DNA from: a virus
Taxonomy: Duplodnaviria; Caudoviricetes
Virus record (IMG/VR): IMGVR_UViG_3300028361_000502
Span: 1 to 53,099 of that record
Reading direction: 5' to 3' (one strand)
DNA length: 53,099 bases
Part shown: positions 33,114-40,191 of the stretch, piece after piece
Position numbering within the stretch: position 1 is the first letter of the stretch
How the letters are laid out: the number at the start of each line of letters is the position of its first letter
Notes under the pieces: generated by a model
The model's database searches: none
Told to the model about the DNA's origin: nothing
What the model saw: only the letters and a program-made list of their open reading frames with translations
Position numbers and translations under genes: made by a program

Positions 33114-33361
33114 AATGTGTGTCCTGTTCCTGTATAACCTGTTTCTTCGATATATTTTGCTAGTTCTGTATAGCCGCCCACTTTGAACCCGTTTACTACA
33201 ATCTGAGGTACTGTCTTGGCTAGGGGAAATGTTTCTAAAAGCTGTTCACGTGTGTAGTCCACGTCCAGTGTTTTGTATTCGTAGACATAGCCCCGTGAGT
33301 CACATAGTTCTTTGGCTGCTTTACAATAGCCGCAGCCTGGCTTTCCGTATATTAGTATCAT
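33110..33361 (-). CDS. Glutaredoxin
   Basis: CGYC, TVPQI, VGGYTEL. Confidence 0.93.
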   Translation of the reverse strand: MILIYGKPGCGYCKAAKELCDSRGYVYEYKTLDVDYTREQLLETFPLAKTVPQIVVNGFKVGGYTELAKYIEETGYTGTGHTL

Positions 33362-34491
33362 AGACTGAATCTTTTTTGAATTATTTCTAATTTCCAGCCC
33401 GTTGTTTTTCCTTTTTTAGGAATAGGCCAGTTTTTTTGTATTTGCATTTTTAGTGTACTCCAACTTAGATTGTTTTTCTTACAAAATTCTACTGCTTCGC
33501 CGCCGCATAAAATATGTTCAACGCTTTGAGGTGATGTTAATTTATATGTGTAACTGTTTTTGTTACCTTTGCCAACTCGTAATTTTGCCTTGGCTCCTAT
33601 TAAGTCCTTTGTACTTTGCTTCTGTGTTTTGCCGTACATAGGGTTTCCAGAACCAGTATTTAATTTACTAAACTTCTTGCGTGTTTCGTCGCTGTGACGT
33701 TTAGGCCCATAGCCTCCACGTTCTTTCTGCAGGCGCGATCGCAATTCTCGTTGTTGCTGTGCTTTTTCAATACCATAAATTTCTTCGTATGTTTTGCCTC
33801 TGTGATTAGGAGGACGTGCATCTATACAGATATTAGATAATATTCCGTCTTTTTCATATCCCTTTCTGTCATAACGCTTAATCAACTCTGATTCTATATT
33901 ATACGCTAAATCTTCATCAATGATATTTTCAGCAATATACTCAATTAATGGTTCATTACCAGATGCACGTATGCTAGCAATCTTATTTTCTTTATAAACA
34001 TTCCTAGTTTCAGGAACGTCCCATAAGTGTGTTTTGGCTCGTCTACCTTTGCCTTTTCCGATATAAAAGGGTTGACTGTTTCTTGGGTCTACTAATTGAT
34101 ATACATAATACACGCTATTTTTCTCCTGCTGTATATATTTAGCAAGAGACTGAGAATAACAGTTAGGTATTGAATAATCCTCGGTTTGATTAGAACTAGC
34201 AGCAAAGATAATGTGTTCTCTGTGATCTTTATATGGGGTTATGTCTACTAGTTTGTCGTCTTTCCATATACTGTGCCGTATGGCTTGTATAACGCCAAAC
34301 CCTTTTAAAAAATAATAGCCAATTACTTTCTTTCCGCCATAGATAGTGGTATGTGTTTTAACATTATTATGACAGTTGTTGTAATCGTATGCCGAGTGTG
34401 CGTTAACAACTACAGCGCCAATCCAGTTGCAATCAAGAGACTTTGCCATAGAACGCATGTCATCTTCAACTGCAACTGGATTGTTCCACAT
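33358..34491 (-). CDS. GIY-YIG homing endonuclease with NUMOD-type repeats and an extra N-terminal domain
   Basis: YYVYQLVDPR..PFYIGKG..RR..H; GKTYEEIYG, HSDETRKK, NPMYGK; internal AGGAG-GTG start at 34113. Confidence 0.8.
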   Translation of the reverse strand: MWNNPVAVEDDMRSMAKSLDCNWIGAVVVNAHSAYDYNNCHNNVKTHTTIYGGKKVIGYYFLKGFGVIQAIRHSIWKDDKLVDITPYKDHREHIIFAASSNQTEDYSIPNCYSQSLAKYIQQEKNSVYYVYQLVDPRNSQPFYIGKGKGRRAKTHLWDVPETRNVYKENKIASIRASGNEPLIEYIAENIIDEDLAYNIESELIKRYDRKGYEKDGILSNICIDARPPNHRGKTYEEIYGIEKAQQQRELRSRLQKERGGYGPKRHSDETRKKFSKLNTGSGNPMYGKTQKQSTKDLIGAKAKLRVGKGNKNSYTYKLTSPQSVEHILCGGEAVEFCKKNNLSWSTLKMQIQKNWPIPKKGKTTGWKLEIIQKRFSL

Positions 34492-35621
34492 TAGAGGCTG
34501 AATCCTTTGAATGTGTCACTGCTAACGTCCTGTTTAGTGCCGCCAGAAACGTAAGAACTTATCTGTGTTTGCTGAGGTGCCACTTGTACTTCGCTTCCGC
34601 TAATCCATTTCTGTGTCCAAGGCAGCGGATTGTTCTTGATAGTGTAGGGGCTTTTAAGATTTACATTGGTCATGCGTCGTGTACAGATCCATTCAATGTA
34701 TTCACTCAACAGTTGTGTGTTTAGGCCGATCATGCTTCCGTCTTTGAACAAATATTCTGCCCAAGCTTTTTCTTGATCTACTGCGTCGATAAACATTTGA
34801 ACGCAGGCTGCTTCTGTTTCAGATGCAATCTTTTCAAAGTCTGGATCATCCTTCTTCAGTATCTTGAGCAGCATCTGAGTTGAAGCTAGGTGCAGGTTCT
34901 CATCACGAGCAATCAACTTGATGATCTTAGCATTGCCTTCCATCTTCTTAAGTTCAGCAAACGCCCAACTACATGCAAAGCTTACATAGAAGCGAACACC
35001 TTCGAGAATGTTCACACTCATCAATGCTAGCCACAACAGTTTCTTTAATTCATAAAGATCAACCACCACAGTGTTACCGTTCACAGTGTGTACGCCTTCA
35101 CCTAGTAGATTGTAGTAACTGGCCAGTTCAATTAGGTCGTCGTAGTACTTTGAAATGTCTCCTGCACAGTCTACAATTTCTGTAATGTTCATCATCTCGT
35201 CAAAGATCTTGCTGGGGTTGGAATAGATGTTGCGGATGATGTGTGTATAGCTTCTGCTGTGGATGGTCTCAGAGAACGTCCAAGTGATGATCCAGTTCTC
35301 TAGTTCAGGTAGGCTTACAATAGTACCAAAGCTTTCTGCTGGTGCTCGACCCTGTACTGAGTCCAACAGTATTTGACGCTTGAGGTTTGAAGTAAAGATA
35401 TGTCGCTCATGGTCTGTGAGAGCCTTAAAGTCTTTGGCATCTTGATAGATGTCTATTTCCTCAGGACGCCAAAAGAATCCCAACTGCTTGTCTGTTAGTT
35501 GATCAAACTGTTTGTACTTCAGTGTATCATAACGCTGAATTGTTGGGCCACCACTTGGATCAAGGAACGCCTTTACTGTAGTATGGTCTACTGTGTTGGT
35601 GGTGTCAAATACACTGCTCAT
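34491..35621 (-). CDS. nrdB: Class Ia ribonucleotide reductase beta subunit
   Basis: FFWRPEE, QILLDSVQGR, ETIHSRSY, LEGVRFYVSF, RDENLH; promoter TTGACA-N17-TAAAAT at 35650-35678. Confidence 0.97.
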   Translation of the reverse strand: MSSVFDTTNTVDHTTVKAFLDPSGGPTIQRYDTLKYKQFDQLTDKQLGFFWRPEEIDIYQDAKDFKALTDHERHIFTSNLKRQILLDSVQGRAPAESFGTIVSLPELENWIITWTFSETIHSRSYTHIIRNIYSNPSKIFDEMMNITEIVDCAGDISKYYDDLIELASYYNLLGEGVHTVNGNTVVVDLYELKKLLWLALMSVNILEGVRFYVSFACSWAFAELKKMEGNAKIIKLIARDENLHLASTQMLLKILKKDDPDFEKIASETEAACVQMFIDAVDQEKAWAEYLFKDGSMIGLNTQLLSEYIEWICTRRMTNVNLKSPYTIKNNPLPWTQKWISGSEVQVAPQQTQISSYVSGGTKQDVSSDTFKGFSL

Positions 35622-35681: not shown

Positions 35682-36233
35682 TTATATAGTGCAACTTTCA
35701 CATTCGCCGCCTGCATCCGCTGGGACAGCGGGCAATTCCTGTACGCTGTTATCAGATATCATTTTGTCTGTGTCCAACTCGCCTTGGCCATCGTTTGTTT
35801 GGAAATAATAAAGCTGTTTTCCGCCTAGCTTGTAGAACAACAGTAGGTGCTGTAGCATAGTGCTGAGAGGTATTTTCTCATCTTCGTAGTACTGTGGATT
35901 GTAACTGGTGTTTACACTGATGCCTTGATCAATGTATTTCTGCAACACTGCCACGATCTTTAAATAGCCTTCTGGGCTACGCTGATCCCACAGTAGATCA
36001 TATTTGTTCTTGAGCTTTTTAAACTCTGGCACTACCTGCTTGAGTACGCCATGCTTGCTCTGCTTGATTGAGATTAGACTGCGCGGTGGTTCAATACCGT
36101 TGGTAGCATTTGCAATTTGCGCACTAGTGTTATGACTAATGCATCCATTTGACAAGGTATAAGTTTCGTTGTCAGTTGAAACATCCCAAGTGTGTTCTGT
36201 TCCTGCGTCTCTTGTAATACGTTTAATTTTCAT
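35682..36233 (-). CDS. nrdA: NrdA fragment 3: split-intein C-half (35 aa) plus NrdA C-terminus
   Basis: TWDVSTDNETYTLSNGCISHN then TSAQIANATNGIEPPR...KQLYY...CESC; start moved to ATG 36233. Confidence 0.92.
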   Translation of the reverse strand: MKIKRITRDAGTEHTWDVSTDNETYTLSNGCISHNTSAQIANATNGIEPPRSLISIKQSKHGVLKQVVPEFKKLKNKYDLLWDQRSPEGYLKIVAVLQKYIDQGISVNTSYNPQYYEDEKIPLSTMLQHLLLFYKLGGKQLYYFQTNDGQGELDTDKMISDNSVQELPAVPADAGGECESCTI

Positions 36234-36487
36234 TTTAATAATTCCTCTTTTGTAATTGAACATTTTCCTTGTTTTGACACGTTATCTTCCCAGGGAATAA
36301 ATTCTAAATTTTGCAAGCTTCCTAATAGCGCAGGATCAATTCCTTCAATAAATCCTCGAGATATTGAGAATTTATGATCTAGATGATAGGCGTTGTTGAT
36401 ACCTGCTCGGCCTCTTTTTTCATAATTCACTAATAAATTTAGGTCATGTTGATTAGTATATTCCCAGTCATACGGGTTTGCTTTCAT
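36230..36487 (-). CDS. Truncated HNH-type endonuclease remnant between the intein halves
   Basis: YHLDHKFSI...NLEFIPWEDNVSK; only 85 aa; AT-rich. Confidence 0.65.
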   Translation of the reverse strand: MKANPYDWEYTNQHDLNLLVNYEKRGRAGINNAYHLDHKFSISRGFIEGIDPALLGSLQNLEFIPWEDNVSKQGKCSITKEELLK

Positions 36488-36504
36488 ATTATCTCCTGTT
36501 AGCG

Positions 36505-37461
36505 TTAATGCTTATAATTAACGCTAACAATATCGTCATCTTCTAATAAATCTTTAACTTCGATCCATTCTTTTATGTTATTTCGTAATACAAGAAGTTT
36601 GTGATTATTAGTAAATTTATATACCGATCCGTCTTCTAATTCAATTTCTGTAACAGATTGAGGGCCATTATAATAACATTCATATGCTATACTATCTGAC
36701 AATTCAACTGGTTTAAGGAATGGAAATCTCTGACCTATCATGAATTTTTCGTGAACAGTGTTAATATCAATTTTTCCGTAATCTTGAATAACTTCGGCGA
36801 GCGTTACAACTGTTCCATCTTTTAGCCTCATTTCATTTGCCAAGCTTTGACATTCACTAGGCATCAGTGCCATCAGTGTTGAGTTGCGGATGCCAGTTGT
36901 CTTAAGCTGTTCACGCAGACCTTGCCAATCCATGCGTTCTTGATGTGGTACTAGTTCGTCCAGTGCTGACGCATAGGTTTGATTAGGTGTGATGCCTAGG
37001 CCGTACTTGGTTTCAGGTGTTCCAGGGCAAGCACCAAATTCTACTGCAAGATCAGCACTGGCTTTGATCAAATAGTAACTCCAAGCTTCTGCCCATTCGT
37101 CAATCAGTGCTAGCCCTTGTGCGTCAATGTTTTGATAGCTGAGACTGTTCTTGGCCATCCAGTAAGCAAAATTGATAATGCCAATGCCCAAAGGTCTACG
37201 CTTTTCTGTACTAAGTTGGGCAGCTAGGATAGGATAGTTTTGATAGCTCAACAGTGCATCTAGTCCACGTACTGCTAAACGACATACACGCTCAAAGTCT
37301 GCTGGTGTACGAATGTTGCCCCAATTTATTGCTGACAAGGTACAAAGGCTGATAGCGGCGCCGTCGTAATCTTCTACCATTTCGTCTACATAGTAATATT
37401 CTTCGTCTTCGTGTATATCAATCTTGTCCTCAACAATTTCATATAGCCAATCATCTTTCAT
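36505..37461 (-). CDS. nrdA: NrdA fragment 2: acidic head, NrdA core, split-intein N-half (from Cys at 36852)
   Basis: ISLCTLSAINWG, RRPLGIGIINFAY, GIRNSTLMALMPSE then CQSLAN...FTNNHKL...WIEVKDL. Confidence 0.92.
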   Translation of the reverse strand: MKDDWLYEIVEDKIDIHEDEEYYYVDEMVEDYDGAAISLCTLSAINWGNIRTPADFERVCRLAVRGLDALLSYQNYPILAAQLSTEKRRPLGIGIINFAYWMAKNSLSYQNIDAQGLALIDEWAEAWSYYLIKASADLAVEFGACPGTPETKYGLGITPNQTYASALDELVPHQERMDWQGLREQLKTTGIRNSTLMALMPSECQSLANEMRLKDGTVVTLAEVIQDYGKIDINTVHEKFMIGQRFPFLKPVELSDSIAYECYYNGPQSVTEIELEDGSVYKFTNNHKLLVLRNNIKEWIEVKDLLEDDDIVSVNYKH

Positions 37462-38219
37462 TTTTTATATCCTTTTAATTTTCTAAGTTTGAACATTGAC
37501 AGTCCTGTTGCGTTTGATGCTTCTGTCATTGAACCGTATTCCACATTATCGACTACAATAGACTTTGAGAACGAATTATCGGAACCGTACATTGCTTTGC
37601 CGGGCTTGCCCTTGCTTTTCCATTCTTTACAATCATATTCTACATTTCGATTATTCGTTATTTTTTTGCACTTATAGCCTTTGTAATGCTGTTTATTTCC
37701 TCTTGCAACAGCACTCATTGCTGAAGGATTTAGATTATTTTCTTTACAATACTCTAGCATATTTTCTCGAACTATTGTTGTACCGTCAGGAGTTGTGATT
37801 TCCCACGTGTCAATTTTTAATTTATGTCTGTTATGATCGCCCCATAACTGCTTTCCTTTGTGAGGACTAGGTTTTCCTTTTTTTGCTTTAGATATCCTAT
37901 CATAATATATTTTAGCTAGCTCTGGATTATCGTGATGGCTCCAGCCTTTTCCAGAATAGTTATGCAGATTATAATACTCGCTACTATTTGCAGCATCAAC
38001 ATTGCATAAAATTTCTTGTTCTTTTGAAACTGCTTCCTCTCCAGTCATATTAGAATGTAAAATTTTTCTAGTATAATTATGAGGATTTTTATCATAAATC
38101 TCGTTAAAATAATTACTAGATGAAATATAGCCGTCACACATTGTTCCGTAATGCGACCCGATATATTTCATCTTGTCTATTTTTGATTCCCACATATAAA
38201 TAAAACCTTGCTTTTCCAT
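37458..38219 (-). CDS. GIY-YIG (Seg-like) homing endonuclease splitting nrdA
   Basis: GFIYMW...KYIGSH, YISSS, YYNL; C-terminal NUMOD/HTH repeats. Confidence 0.85.
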   Translation of the reverse strand: MEKQGFIYMWESKIDKMKYIGSHYGTMCDGYISSSNYFNEIYDKNPHNYTRKILHSNMTGEEAVSKEQEILCNVDAANSSEYYNLHNYSGKGWSHHDNPELAKIYYDRISKAKKGKPSPHKGKQLWGDHNRHKLKIDTWEITTPDGTTIVRENMLEYCKENNLNPSAMSAVARGNKQHYKGYKCKKITNNRNVEYDCKEWKSKGKPGKAMYGSDNSFSKSIVVDNVEYGSMTEASNATGLSMFKLRKLKGYKK

Positions 38220-38243
38220 AATATTATACCTTTCTGTATAATA

Positions 38244-39731
38244 TTATTTATCCTTATGTACTTTTTTGCCGTTAAGTTTTTCTTTATCAAGTCTAAGGAT
38301 ATTGCTAACTGATTTTTTATATTCTAAGTATTCCTGATACTTTTCTTTTGGTACACGAACTTTTCTCCTATGGGCTCCGTCGTTTAGATCGTTCAACGGC
38401 TTGGTAGGCAGGTCAATTTCTGCGCAAAGATTTGATTGTCTAATAGGAGCAATTGACGGAATAAAGCTGCCGTGACTGTTGGCATTGTCTACATTCTGTA
38501 GATAGATACGACCTGTGTTCTTGCGCTCTTCCATAAAGCTGCTGAACAAGTCAATAGCTTTAATAGTCTTTTTGCGCAGTTTGGTGTTGCGTTCAGCAGT
38601 TTCATACAGTTCACGGAACAGATCTTGATCCGCAAAGAAAGCATCATACAGCCCAGGAACATCTGCAGGGGAAAACAGTGTGATGTCAGCGCCCTGTATC
38701 AGTCTTTCATAAAACAGTTTGTTAAACTGTACGCCATAATCCATATGACGCACTCGATTTTCTTCTGTGCCTTTGTTGTTCTTCAGCACCAACATATCTT
38801 CTATCTCATAGTGCCATATAGGGTAGTAGATAGTGGCTGCACCGCCTCTTACTCCGCCTTGACTACAGCTTTTAACAGCTGATTGAAAGTGCTTGTAGAA
38901 AGGAATAATACCTGTATGGTAAGCATCACCTTTGCGTATAGGTGATCCGATAGCACGGATGTTGCCGCCGCCTATGCCAATGCCTGCTTTCTGACTAACA
39001 TATTTGACAATACTAGCGGCTGTGGCATTGATGCTGTCTAGGCTATCACCTGTTTCAATTAAAACACAACTTGAGAACTGACGCTGTGGTGTACGAACAC
39101 CTGCCATAACCGGTGTAGGCAAGCTGATGTCATGCTGGCTGACAGCATCGTAGTAGTCCTTGACCCAGGTTAGCCTTGACTCTTTGGGATAGTTGTGAAA
39201 CAGTGTGGCAGCGATCAGTATATAGCATACCTGCGGAGTTTCAAAGATTTCACCACTGACCCTGTTCTGTACTAGATACTTGCCGCGCAGTTGCTCCATG
39301 GCCACATAGGTTAAACTTTCATCACGCTCATGTTTTACAAAACTGTTGATGCGATCCCACTCTTCGTCTGTGTAGTATGAGATCAATTCTGGATCATAAA
39401 ATCCTAGATCAGTATTGCGTTTAACTAGGTCTTTGACAGCACAAGGTTCAAACTGTCCGTATACTTCTTTGCGCAGGGCATAGTTGATCATTCTCCCGCC
39501 TACATATTGATAGTTGGGATTTTCTTCTGAGATAAGATCCGCCGCAGCTTTGATCAGTGTTTCTTGAATCTCTTTGGTAGTAATACCGTTGTAAAACTGT
39601 ATCTGACTCTTGATTTCCACTTCGCTTGGGCTAACTCCAGTTATGTCATCACAGGCATAAAAAACAACCTTGTGTAATTTTTCAATATCTAGAGGCTCTT
39701 TGCGCCCTGCTCGCTTGGTGACTTGAATCAT
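38244..39731 (-). CDS. nrdA: NrdA fragment 1: ATP cone through the catalytic NLCAE, plus a basic tail
   Basis: MIQVTKR ATP cone, TPVMAGVRT, FSSCVLIE, GGVRGG, RQSNLCAEI; start moved to 39731. Confidence 0.95.
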   Translation of the reverse strand: MIQVTKRAGRKEPLDIEKLHKVVFYACDDITGVSPSEVEIKSQIQFYNGITTKEIQETLIKAAADLISEENPNYQYVGGRMINYALRKEVYGQFEPCAVKDLVKRNTDLGFYDPELISYYTDEEWDRINSFVKHERDESLTYVAMEQLRGKYLVQNRVSGEIFETPQVCYILIAATLFHNYPKESRLTWVKDYYDAVSQHDISLPTPVMAGVRTPQRQFSSCVLIETGDSLDSINATAASIVKYVSQKAGIGIGGGNIRAIGSPIRKGDAYHTGIIPFYKHFQSAVKSCSQGGVRGGAATIYYPIWHYEIEDMLVLKNNKGTEENRVRHMDYGVQFNKLFYERLIQGADITLFSPADVPGLYDAFFADQDLFRELYETAERNTKLRKKTIKAIDLFSSFMEERKNTGRIYLQNVDNANSHGSFIPSIAPIRQSNLCAEIDLPTKPLNDLNDGAHRRKVRVPKEKYQEYLEYKKSVSNILRLDKEKLNGKKVHKDK

Positions 39732-39765
39732 TTTTATTTCCTTGTTCTGTTGTGTGATCTGATAT

Positions 39766-40191
39766 TTATTGGAGTGATGGCATGAGGTACTGGTATTCAG
39801 AAACGGTGGTGGTGGGAACTTGGCTTCTGTGAACATGCGTATCTCCGGCTGGGCTGACAACCCTATCATCAATGAACAGTAAGTATTCTACAGATGATCT
39901 TTGTTTGTCGTGTGTAATATGTATCTCGAATCTGGCAGGAGTAAAACGGTCAGTTAATTGTAAGGTGTAGCAGATCGCAAGGATCTTCACGAACACACAA
40001 TAATTATTTTCCTTGATTATTTCCCACGGTGCAGGCCAGGTACTTTGAGTGTAAGGGTCAGCAGCAATGCTGACCTCTGGGGCACGATTGAATAGGTCAA
40101 TTGTGTCCTGTATAGGGTCTTCAGCCGTCTCTAGTGCAGATCTGAAAGATCTCCAGAGTGCTAGACGTTGCTCATATGTTTTATCGAACAT
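39766..40191 (-). CDS. Hypothetical phage protein
   Basis: 141 aa; WPAPWEII..NNYC motif. Confidence 0.7.
   Translation of the reverse strand: MFDKTYEQRLALWRSFRSALETAEDPIQDTIDLFNRAPEVSIAADPYTQSTWPAPWEIIKENNYCVFVKILAICYTLQLTDRFTPARFEIHITHDKQRSSVEYLLFIDDRVVSPAGDTHVHRSQVPTTTVSEYQYLMPSLQ

What the first reader, a model, noticed from the sequence alone, without database searches (positions are those of the whole stretch)
37357..38375. Complementary basic and acidic tails at the non-intein NrdA break: a possible natural peptide clasp
Seen: fragment 1 gains a 43-aa tail with 15 K/R (AHRRKVRVPKEKY...), and fragment 2 gains a 35-aa head with 15 D/E (...EDEEYYYVDEMVEDYDG). Neither is NrdA sequence. RRKVRV and YYYVDE look like pairing beta strands. 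Inference: a heterodimerisation module that makes splitting of the active-site loop tolerable, analogous to split-intein electrostatics but without splicing.
Basis: partly seen in the sequence, partly recalled or inferred. Interest (0 to 1): 0.75.

Follow-up and report, generated by a model that had tools for sequence, protein, structure and literature searches.

The report
Charged tails on endonuclease-split NrdA
A phage ribonucleotide reductase gene has been cut in two by a selfish endonuclease gene, and the two halves carry a basic and an acidic extension, the kind of arrangement already shown in Aeromonas phage Aeh1 to be needed for the enzyme to work.

Summary
NrdA fragment 1 ends in a 43-44 aa non-NrdA tail (15 K/R, net +9). 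Fragment 2 begins with a 34-36 aa non-NrdA head (15 D/E, net -13). They flank a 253-aa homing endonuclease gene (HEG) in a 1,026-bp AT-rich insert (window 37354-38379).

The idea is not new. Phage Aeh1 has nrdA-a/mobE/nrdA-b, broken in the same loop, with a basic C-tail and an acidic N-tail. Crona et al. 2010 showed those tails are essential for activity. They were not needed for the two halves to bind each other. They were needed for dimerisation of the heterodimer and for tight NrdB binding.

- The window belongs to a metagenomic family with conserved tails (30 tails, 48 heads).
- The split state is scattered among near-identical unsplit NrdAs.
- One mosaic locus (L008) switches parent at the head/core edge.
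- Some alleles have lost the HEG but kept both extensions.
- One natural unsplit NrdA (P0127) holds tail and head as a single insertion.
- The HEG joins a GIY-YIG-like N-terminus to a MobE-like C-terminus.

AlphaFold2 gives strands at HRRKIRIP and YIYEDELV only in the fused protein. I could not read their pairing from coordinates. Sequence homology to the Aeh1 tails is not supported. Verdict: a new member of a known kind, of moderate interest.

The parts
38244..39731 (-). nrdA fragment 1 (nrdA-a type): ATP-cone, all-alpha domain, first half of the barrel including the Cys439-equivalent, then the basic tail. The mechanical ORF extends to a TTG at 39872.
   Evidence: 53% identity to Aeh1 NrdA-a up to LPT.P. 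Relatives start at MIQVTKR.
38247..38378 (-). Basic C-terminal tail, 44 aa from the invariant Gly (GAHRRKVRVPKEKYQEYLEYKK...). Predicted strand followed by an amphipathic helix.
   Evidence: composition. (end of NrdA similarity). (30 family tails). (strand and helix in the fused relative).
37354..38379 (-). The inserted cassette: tail-coding DNA, stop codon, 24-nt spacer with hairpin, HEG, head-coding DNA. It replaces about 13 nt of the unsplit allele.
   Evidence: DNA alignments to unsplit loci. (low GC). (flanking 11-nt direct repeat with 1 mismatch).
38216..38247 (-). RNA hairpin with a 12-bp stem and loop AGAAAG. It covers the purine-rich stretch and the first two bases of the HEG start codon. 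It is preceded by GAUAAAUAA, which contains the nrdA-a stop codon.
   Evidence: dG -10.2, z -6.45, 0 of 200 shuffles. (conserved with compensatory changes in L011, L061, L037).
37458..38219 (-). Free-standing homing endonuclease, 253 aa. The N-terminus is GIY-YIG-like. The C-terminal 140 aa are homologous to the C-terminus of Aeh1 MobE and of T4-type MobE genes next to nrdA.
   Evidence: phrog_314, E 5.8e-18. PF01541 below threshold at 14.3 bits, while its homologue phiN3 gp246 passes at 24.0 bits. 33% identity to Aeh1 MobE residues 99-229, E 3e-17.
37354..37461 (-). Acidic N-terminal head, 36 aa (MKDDWLYEIVEDKIDIHEDEEYYYVDEMVEDYDGAA). Its ATG overlaps the HEG stop codon (ATGA, 37458-37461).
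   Evidence: (start of NrdA similarity). (48 family heads).
36505..37461 (-). nrdA fragment 2: head, barrel positions 214-397 with the Cys462-equivalent, then an N-terminal split-intein half starting at CQSLANE.
   Evidence: barrel; Intein_splicing 23.1 bits, below the 35.8 cut-off. (unsplit consensus MPAETSAQ at the junction).
36230..36487 (-). 85-aa ORF in the split-intein gap. It is the C-terminal remnant of a 327-328-aa ORF that is intact in L008 and L011.
   Evidence: L008 980-1963, L011 5484-6470 end with the same residues. phrog_5104, E 4.8e-17.
35682..36263 (-). nrdA fragment 3: C-terminal split-intein half (ending ...SNGCISHN) followed by barrel positions 390-523.
34491..35621 (-). 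nrdB, the small subunit. It is the partner whose binding depended on the tails in Aeh1.
   Evidence: PF00268, E 3.1e-46. (Aeh1 surface plasmon resonance data).

Best explanation
The tail and head are the translated flanks of a mobile homing-endonuclease cassette.

Where it sits: the cassette lies in the loop of class Ia NrdA between the thiyl-radical cysteine (E. coli R1 Cys439, on fragment 1) and Cys462 (on fragment 2), after R1 residue 455. The order is tail, stop codon, regulatory hairpin, GIY-YIG/MobE-type HEG, head.

Shown here:
- The split and its exact boundaries.
- The opposite charges.
- Conservation of both extensions in a family of marine-type phage contigs, under purifying selection.
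- Exchange of cassette variants between NrdA backgrounds.
- Retention of both extensions after the HEG is lost.

Shown by others, for the Aeh1 counterpart only: the extensions stay on the mature proteins and are essential for activity.

Inferred: the tail contributes a basic beta-strand (RRKVRV) followed by an amphipathic helix (KEKYQEYLEYKKSVSNILRL). The head contributes an acidic strand (YYYVDEMV). Together they form a small module next to the alpha2 dimer interface. This module holds the two barrel strands on either side of the break in register. That would allow the (NrdA-a/NrdA-b)2-NrdB2 holoenzyme to form.

The cassette thus carries its own protein-level antidote, in place of an intron or intein.

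Confidence by step: about 0.9 that this is an Aeh1-type HEG-fragmented NrdA with charged extensions; about 0.7 that the extensions are needed for an active enzyme; about 0.5 that tail and head pair directly through the two strands.
For: Same architecture as Aeh1: the Pfam barrel profile breaks at 221/222 in Aeh1 and at 221/214 in the window. The order is nrdA-a, HEG, nrdA-b, with HEG/nrdA-b overlap. The HEG C-terminal domains are homologous. Charge polarity and low GC match (Aeh1 values pI 10.4 and 3.8).

Aeh1 experiments: tails are present on the mature proteins, deleting both abolishes activity, and dimerisation and NrdB binding are lost.

Family: of the 120 best hits listed, 48 are NrdA-b-type proteins with an acidic head, net -7 to -15 in 48 of 48. 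Of the 120 listed, 30 are NrdA-a-type proteins with a basic tail. The 29 complete tails are net +5 to +10, and one truncated tail is +2.

Purifying selection: dN/dS is 0.12-0.44 in the 5 of 6 tail pairs that could be computed, and 0.06-0.32 in 9 of 15 head pairs (dS is saturated, so values are rough).

Mobility: on a FastTree of 165 core sequences (168 aa), the split state needs at least 19 changes, at least 6 of them forced by starred branches. The window's core is 98% identical to P0068, which is unsplit at this site.

Mosaic L008: its head is 102/102 nt identical to L011's and 72/102 to the window's. Its core is 499/510 identical to the window's and 374/510 to L011's. The switch lies 12-54 nt past the head/core edge.

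Retention without the HEG: in L009 and L010 (contigs of 101 and 251 kb) the tail ORF overlaps the head ORF by 11 nt with no HEG between them. P0127 reads through tail, GTQGTT and head in one ORF.

Structure prediction: in fused P0127, the strand HRRKIRIP and a helix over residues 188-212 fall in blocks with pLDDT 75-80, and the strand YIYEDELV has about 69. In NrdA-b alone the head has pLDDT 33-47 and no secondary structure.
Against: In Aeh1 the tail-less halves still formed the heterodimer. A simple 'clasp that holds the two halves together' is therefore not what the precedent shows.

The window family's tails are not detectably homologous to the Aeh1 tails. The Aeh1 tail scores 1.7 bits against the family tail HMM, a score reached by 385 of 2,000 shuffles. 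The Aeh1 head scores 2.2 bits, reached by 361 of 2,000. Transferring the Aeh1 function therefore rests on position, polarity and the shared HEG domain, not on tail homology.

The left junction also differs. Aeh1's core ends at LPTVPM, and the window's ends six residues later.

The models are of modest quality (mean pLDDT 63.6 and 70.0). P0127 lacks the N-terminal half of the barrel. No coordinates were returned, so strand-to-strand pairing is an inference.

The most conserved head motif, WLYEIV (E8 and V10 nearly invariant), is disordered in both models and has no proposed partner.

The tree uses FastTree on 170 columns, with rows chosen by similarity to the window.
Confidence: 0.65

Rival explanations
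1. The extensions are functional but do not bind each other. Each one docks on NrdA core surfaces or on the partner heterodimer or NrdB. Opposite charge serves only for long-range steering or for repairing the damaged alpha2 interface.
For: Aeh1: the tails are dispensable for the heterodimer but required for (aa/ab)2 formation and NrdB affinity. The authors place them near the dimer-interface helices. The conserved WLYEIV motif has no predicted partner within the insertion.
Against: The head's strand appears only when the tail is in the same chain. A natural fusion of tail and head as one insertion is an intact ORF, which fits a compact unit. None of this is decisive.
Confidence: 0.2
2. The extensions are neutral leftovers of the insertion event. 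They are translated only because the cassette happened to fuse in frame.
For: No family or fold assignment for either. They are AT-rich like the HEG.
Against: Both are conserved in sequence and charge across 30 tails and 48 heads. dN/dS is below 0.45 wherever computable. They are retained intact in HEG-less alleles. The Aeh1 tails are essential.
Confidence: 0.05
3. Conservation of the tail-coding DNA reflects nucleic-acid signals for HEG expression (a late-promoter-like box and an RBS-sequestering hairpin), not a peptide function.
For: A conserved hairpin and a GAUAAAUAA box lie at the tail's last codons and the spacer. Similar hairpins and a TATAAATA element are described for Aeh1 mobE and for fractured genes (Dassa 2009, passages).
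Against: These signals cover only the last few tail codons and the spacer. They do not cover the first 35 or so codons of the tail, nor the head. The constraint is at the protein level. The extensions persist where the HEG is gone.
Confidence: 0.05
4. Tail and head are the decayed halves of a former split intein whose HEG became free-standing. The resemblance to split-intein electrostatics would then be by descent.
For: Crona et al. raise this possibility. Split inteins sit close by in relatives: at NLC|AEI (P0068, P0075, P0146, L009) and at SQGGVRGG (P0136, P0151). By eye, WLYEIVED recalls an intein block-F-like pattern seen in those C-inteins (VYDITV.DNENFF).
Against: No intein or HINT family hit for the tail, the head or the fused P0127, even at E up to 5. 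There is no Cys or Ser at the first tail position, and no His-Asn before the first core residue. The polarity (basic N-side, acidic C-side) fits only some split inteins.
Confidence: 0.05

Closest known systems
Aeromonas phage Aeh1 nrdA-a / mobE / nrdA-b (Friedrich et al. 2007, seen only as a citation; Crona et al. 2010, NAR, PMC3045599, abstract and passages read)
   Same: Class Ia nrdA is cut by a free-standing HEG in the loop between the Cys439- and Cys462-equivalents. There is a basic extension on the upstream half and an acidic extension on the downstream half. The insert is AT-rich. The HEG overlaps nrdA-b. The HEG C-terminal domain is homologous (33% identity, E 3e-17).
   Different: The nuclease domain is GIY-YIG-like here and HNH in Aeh1. 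The tails are longer (44 and 36 aa here, against roughly 32 and 26) and not detectably homologous. The left junction lies six residues further on. The window's NrdA has a second break, a split intein. The Aeh1-type head was found only in Aeh1 itself (2 of 214 records; none), whereas the window's type forms a family.
T4 MobA element splitting topoisomerase gp39/gp60, with C- and N-terminal extensions (bioRxiv 10.1101/2022.08.31.505936, passages read; also discussed in Crona 2010)
   Same: A HEG splits an essential gene and adds extensions to both products. The preprint reports HEG loss with the split and tails kept, secondary fusion, and replacement of the HNH HEG by GIY-YIG or VSR types. I see the same three patterns here for NrdA.
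   Different: The host gene is different. The T4 element also carries a translational bypass. No function has been shown for those tails.
Fractured genes with split inteins and free-standing HEGs (Dassa et al. 2009, PMC2677866, passages read)
   Same: The genomic layout is the same (half gene, HEG, half gene). There is a hairpin upstream of the HEG and an overlap of the HEG with the downstream half. The associating parts carry opposite local charges. The window's second break (36230-36505) is of this kind.
   Different: At the break studied here there is no intein, and no splicing chemistry is possible. The two polypeptides stay separate.

Membership tests
HEG-fragmented class Ia NrdA with assembly tails (Aeh1 type) | nrdA split into two ORFs by a free-standing HEG, with no intron or intein at that break | tested here: met
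   No intein hit for the tail, the head or fused P0127.
HEG-fragmented class Ia NrdA with assembly tails (Aeh1 type) | Break in the barrel loop that separates the active-site cysteines (R1 Cys439 and Cys462) onto different polypeptides | tested here: met
   Fragment 1 aligns to R1 up to residue 455. Fragment 2 aligns from about 454-458. The Pfam profile breaks at 221/222 in both phages.
HEG-fragmented class Ia NrdA with assembly tails (Aeh1 type) | Non-NrdA basic C-terminal tail on the upstream half and acidic N-terminal tail on the downstream half | tested here: met
   Net +9 (pI 10.1) and net -13 (pI 4.05). Aeh1 values are pI 10.4 and 3.8.
HEG-fragmented class Ia NrdA with assembly tails (Aeh1 type) | Tail-coding DNA is AT-rich relative to the flanking nrdA | tested here: met
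   GC 0.31 and 0.38, against 0.44-0.46.
HEG-fragmented class Ia NrdA with assembly tails (Aeh1 type) | The HEG is MobE (HNH family) | tested here: not met
   Only the C-terminal 140 aa match MobE. The N-terminus gives a sub-threshold GIY-YIG hit (14.3 bits against a 22.6 cut-off). Its homologue phiN3 gp246 passes at 24.0 bits.
HEG-fragmented class Ia NrdA with assembly tails (Aeh1 type) | Tails homologous in sequence to the Aeh1 tails | tested here: not met
   Scores of 1.7 and 2.2 bits against the family HMMs, reached by 385 and 361 of 2,000 shuffles. BLAST aligns the heads only as part of the longer core match.
HEG-fragmented class Ia NrdA with assembly tails (Aeh1 type) | Tails required for enzyme activity and holoenzyme assembly | not testable with these tools
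   Shown only for Aeh1. Here there is only indirect support from conservation and retention.
Split intein | HINT-domain motifs, a Cys or Ser at the first intein residue, and His-Asn followed by Cys, Ser or Thr at the C-terminal junction | tested here: not met
   The tail starts GAHRR and the head ends YDGAA before ISLC. No Pfam intein hit at E up to 5.

The most novel reading that the evidence does not exclude
The tail-HEG-head unit is a self-contained 'break-and-clasp' cassette. A homing endonuclease travels together with the two halves of a small associating domain. This lets it invade the active-site loop of an essential enzyme without an intron or intein.

The cassette spreads among phage NrdAs by homing. 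It survives loss of the endonuclease. It can re-fuse, leaving a new 80-residue insertion domain in an otherwise ordinary NrdA. That would be a route by which selfish elements add domains to proteins.

The Aeh1 tails would then be a second, independently evolved solution of the same kind at the same loop.
Probability: 0.4. Interest if true: 0.6.

Novelty: new member of a known kind. Interest (0 to 1): 0.4.

Why it matters
The principle, oppositely charged extensions that rescue a gene broken by a homing endonuclease, has rested on one phage, Aeh1. In 2010 its tails had no database relatives. A 2022 preprint mentions further cases only as unpublished.

This window and its relatives give a second family, with dozens of sequences, at the same loop. 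The family offers natural experiments:
- cassette variants swapped between near-identical NrdA backgrounds;
- HEG-less alleles that keep both extensions;
- a re-fused single-chain form.

These make several questions directly approachable: how the extensions act (direct pairing or repair of the dimer interface), whether they are portable tags for reassembling split proteins, and how selfish elements leave lasting insertions in enzymes.

Tried and rejected
1. Complex prediction of the two extensions alone (fragment 1 residues 452-495 of the 495-aa form, fragment 2 residues 1-36, each with its family alignment). It returned no verdict: score 0.28 against a mark of 0.32, and the controls were not run. 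This counts neither for nor against binding.

2. Homology of the window family's tails to the Aeh1 tails. The HMM test is no better than shuffles. A first script failed on an option conflict and was corrected.

3. Intein origin. No HINT or intein hits and no junction residues.

4. Origin of the insertion. Pfam, PHROGs and the protein atlas gave nothing beyond RNR fragments.

5. Cultured phages with the same head. 0 of 75 matching records cover the head. BLAST's low-complexity filter may hide it. The near-DNA search found no close record.

6. Aeh1-type head in the 5.8-billion-protein set. 9 candidates, none at E of 1e-3 or better.

7. DNA of the fused P0127. The fusion junction could therefore not be read at the nucleotide level.

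8. Foldseek of the P0127 model. Only R1 structures were returned, with nothing on the insertion.

9. PDB sequence search and NCBIfam for the HEG gave nothing.

10. Folding the insertion on its own was not attempted. The fold tool takes whole returned proteins only.

11. Earlier findings of this scan: none on record.
Full report
WHAT IS THERE

The window is a 53,099-bp IMG/VR virus record, with CheckV completeness about 17%. Between 33.1 and 39.9 kb, all on the minus strand, lies a ribonucleotide reductase operon broken up by mobile elements. In order:
- nrdA fragment 1 (38244-39731; ATP-cone, all-alpha domain, barrel profile positions 1-221 of 523)
- a 253-aa homing endonuclease gene, HEG (37458-38219)
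- nrdA fragment 2 (36505-37461; barrel 214-397, ending in an N-terminal split-intein half)
- an 85-aa ORF (36230-36487)
- nrdA fragment 3 (35682-36263; C-terminal intein half plus barrel 390-523)
- nrdB (34491-35621)
- a second HEG with NUMOD3 and GIY-YIG hits (33358-34491)
- a small glutaredoxin-like ORF

NrdA similarity of fragment 1 ends at residue 498-500 of the 542-aa ORF. That corresponds to E. coli R1 residue 455. Similarity of fragment 2 begins at residue 35-37, or 29-31 by phmmer.

The 44 residues after the invariant Gly of fragment 1 hold 15 K/R and 6 D/E (net +9, pI 10.1). The first 36 residues of fragment 2 hold 15 D/E and 2 K/R (net -13, pI 4.05). Within the window's own crude ORF set these are the most extreme termini. 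Only 0.6% and 0.3% of equally long windows reach these charges.

At the DNA level, unsplit relatives align up to 38380-38375 and again from 37353. The window therefore has a 1,026-bp insert where, for example, L014 has 13 nt. The insert is AT-rich: GC 0.31 (tail), 0.335 (HEG) and 0.38 (head), against 0.44-0.46 in the core. It is bracketed by an 11-nt direct repeat with one mismatch, which encodes (N/Y)-D-G-A at both ends.

IT IS A KNOWN KIND OF THING

Aeromonas phage Aeh1 carries nrdA-A, mobE and nrdA-B in the same order. Its barrel profile is broken at 221/222, against 221/214 here.

Crona et al. 2010 (PMC3045599; abstract and passages read) report the following:
- The Aeh1 C-tail is basic (pI 10.4) and the N-tail acidic (pI 3.8).
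- Their DNA is AT-rich.
- They had no database matches at the time.
- They remain on the mature proteins.
- Deleting both abolishes activity.
- The tail-less halves still form the heterodimer.
- Deletion prevents dATP-driven formation of (aa/ab)2 and weakens NrdB binding.

That paper already draws the parallel to split-intein electrostatics. It proposes that such tails may be a general answer to fragmentation, citing T4 gp39/gp60.

A 2022 preprint (10.1101/2022.08.31.505936; passages read) says that several other Myoviridae have similar MobE insertions in nrdA with conserved extensions, but only as unpublished.

Two literature searches returned no later study of these NrdA tails.

HOW THE WINDOW RELATES TO AEH1

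- Fragment 1 is 53% identical to Aeh1 NrdA-a up to LPT.P.
- Fragment 2 is 43% identical to NrdA-b.
- The HEGs share only their C-terminal 140 residues (33% identity, E 3e-17). That region also matches the MobE-type genes next to nrdA in T4-like coliphages.
- The N-terminal nuclease domain differs. Aeh1 MobE is annotated as HNH. The window's HEG gives a sub-threshold GIY-YIG hit (14.3 bits, profile positions 2-68 of 78), and its homologue phiN3 gp246 passes the cut-off.
- The tails themselves are not demonstrably homologous. Against HMMs of the window's family, the Aeh1 tail and head score 1.7 and 2.2 bits, scores reached by 385 and 361 of 2,000 shuffles.
- The left junction differs by six residues.

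The two cases share the loop, the charge polarity and the HEG's probable DNA-binding domain. The extensions may be independent inventions or may have diverged beyond recognition.

A FAMILY, AND NATURAL VARIANTS

Searching 5.8 billion proteins with fragment 2 residues 1-80 gave 263 hits. Of the 120 listed, 48 are NrdA-b-type proteins (255-353 aa) with an acidic head built on two motifs, WLYEIV and (E/D)YVY.DE.VEDYDG. All 48 are net -7 to -15.

Searching with fragment 1 residues 440-542 gave 2,791 hits. Of the 120 listed, 30 are NrdA-a-type proteins with a basic tail. There are two subtypes...RRKVRVPKEKYQEYLEYKK...ILRL..E.FNGKK and ...PVKKNIKMTKENYQKYLIWRKNNPNTPLPNS. The 29 complete tails are net +5 to +10.

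The closest full-length NrdAs (765-772 aa) read LPTKPLNDLNDPEGEISLCTLSA straight through the site.

One listed protein, P0127, is an unsplit NrdA. It is 570 aa, N-terminally cut by its 3,003-nt contig, and its cluster has 2 members. It reads tail, then GTQGTT, then head, then core as a single ORF with no HEG.

In L009 and L010 (contigs of 101 and 251 kb) the HEG is also absent but the gene is still split. A 99-aa ORF (C-intein, 17 NrdA residues, tail) overlaps the head-bearing ORF by 11 nt.

L011, L061 and L037 carry the same HEG type as the window (68-80% identity).

THE CASSETTE MOVES

On a FastTree of the 168 core residues after the break (165 distinct rows: 112 unsplit, 48 split, 1 fused, 4 unclassified), the split state needs at least 19 changes. 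At least 6 are forced by well-supported branches.

The window's core is 98% identical to P0068, which is unsplit at this site.

L008 is a clean mosaic:

| Region | L008 vs L011 | L008 vs window |
|---|---|---|
| Head (102 nt) | 102/102 | 72/102 |
| Core (510 nt) | 374/510 | 499/510 |

The switch lies 12-54 nt past the head/core edge.

Caveats: the rows were chosen by similarity to the window, the alignment is short, and the method is fast rather than careful.

THE EXTENSIONS ARE SELECTED AS PROTEIN

dN/dS is 0.12-0.44 for the 5 of 6 tail pairs that could be computed. It is 0.06-0.32 for 9 of 15 head pairs. dS is above 1, so these are rough. The core gives 0.05-0.28. Retention of intact extensions in HEG-less alleles points the same way.

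DO TAIL AND HEAD PAIR?

AlphaFold2 on P0127, using an alignment of 65 split, unsplit and fused rows, gave a modest model (mean pLDDT 63.6) because half the barrel is missing. Within it:
- HRRKIRIP is an 8-residue strand and KEKYQEY...EKF a helix (block pLDDT 75-80 for residues 181-200).
- The linker and WLYEIV are disordered.
- YIYEDELV is an 8-residue strand (about 69).

Folding a complete NrdA-b with the same head as the window (P0006, 36-row alignment) leaves residues 1-39 without secondary structure, at pLDDT 33-47.

The head strand thus appears only when the tail is present. No coordinates were available, so the pairing is inferred.

MOST LIKELY MECHANISM

I think the tail strand and the head strand form an antiparallel pair, with the amphipathic tail helix packed on it. 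This would build a small module at the mouth of the break. The module would keep the two flanking barrel strands and the Cys439 and Cys462 elements in register. Because the loop lies near the alpha2 interface, it would also restore the surface needed for dimerisation and NrdB binding.

Which steps are shown and which are inferred:
- Shown here: anatomy, conservation, mobility.
- Shown for Aeh1 only: the extensions are essential.
- Inferred: the pairing and the link to dimerisation in this family.

The role of the conserved WLYEIV motif is unexplained.

VERDICT

The phenomenon has been published since 2007-2010. This is a new member, arguably a second tail family with a different nuclease domain. 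Its value lies in the natural variants it brings.

Noticed in passing
window 38216-38252 (minus strand); L011 3716-3745; L061 1345-1368; L037 134-158: A hairpin lies immediately upstream of the HEG start codon and includes its first bases. In the window the stem is 12 bp, the loop is AGAAAG, dG is -10.2 kcal/mol and 0 of 200 shuffles fold as well. It is conserved with compensatory changes in three relatives. It is preceded by GAUAAAUAA, which contains the nrdA-a stop codon. It resembles the RBS-sequestering hairpin and late-promoter box described for Aeh1 mobE and for fractured genes.
   Followed up: partly
window 35682-37461: There is a second break in the same NrdA. The split intein's N-half starts at CQSLANE after ...MPSE, and its C-half ends ...CISHN before TSAQ. 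This makes a three-ORF nrdA. The 85-aa ORF in the gap (36230-36487) is the C-terminal remnant of a 327-328-aa ORF that is intact in L008 and L011, so the endonuclease in this gap has been largely deleted in the window.
   Followed up: partly
L009 2003-6155 (and L010): A four-piece NrdA. A further split intein sits at the thiyl-radical cysteine (NLC|AEI). This leaves a 99-aa ORF made of a C-intein, 17 NrdA residues and the basic tail. It overlaps the head-bearing ORF by 11 nt, with no HEG between them.
   Followed up: partly
P0127 (metagenomic protein, residues about 178-258): A natural NrdA in which tail and head are fused in frame through GTQGTT, with the HEG gone. It is a single-chain version of the module. 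Its contig could not be fetched, so the DNA junction is unread.
   Followed up: partly
L008 6-620 compared with window 36850-37461 and L011 4501-5112: A recombinant allele. Its head is identical to L011's, and its core is 98% identical to the window's. The switch lies within about 50 nt of the cassette's right edge.
   Followed up: yes
window 33358-34491: A second free-standing HEG (377 aa; NUMOD3 at E 3e-8, LEM-3-like GIY-YIG at E 2.3e-5) lies between nrdB and the glutaredoxin-like gene. A related ORF follows nrdB in L061.
   Followed up: no
P0136, P0151, P0146, P0068, P0075 (metagenomic proteins): Relatives carry split or contiguous inteins at two further NrdA sites: before SQGGVRGG and at NLC|AEI. 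This NrdA lineage is broken at four or more different places in different phages.
   Followed up: no
window 39766-40191: A 141-aa ORF upstream of nrdA is conserved in the same position in L009 and L011 (MF(D/E)K.YE.RL..W..F...LET...). No function was sought.
   Followed up: no
window 39732-39872: The mechanical ORF of fragment 1 starts at a TTG 47 codons upstream of the ATG (MIQVTKR) used by all relatives. The extra residues overlap the upstream ORF and are probably not translated.
   Followed up: partly
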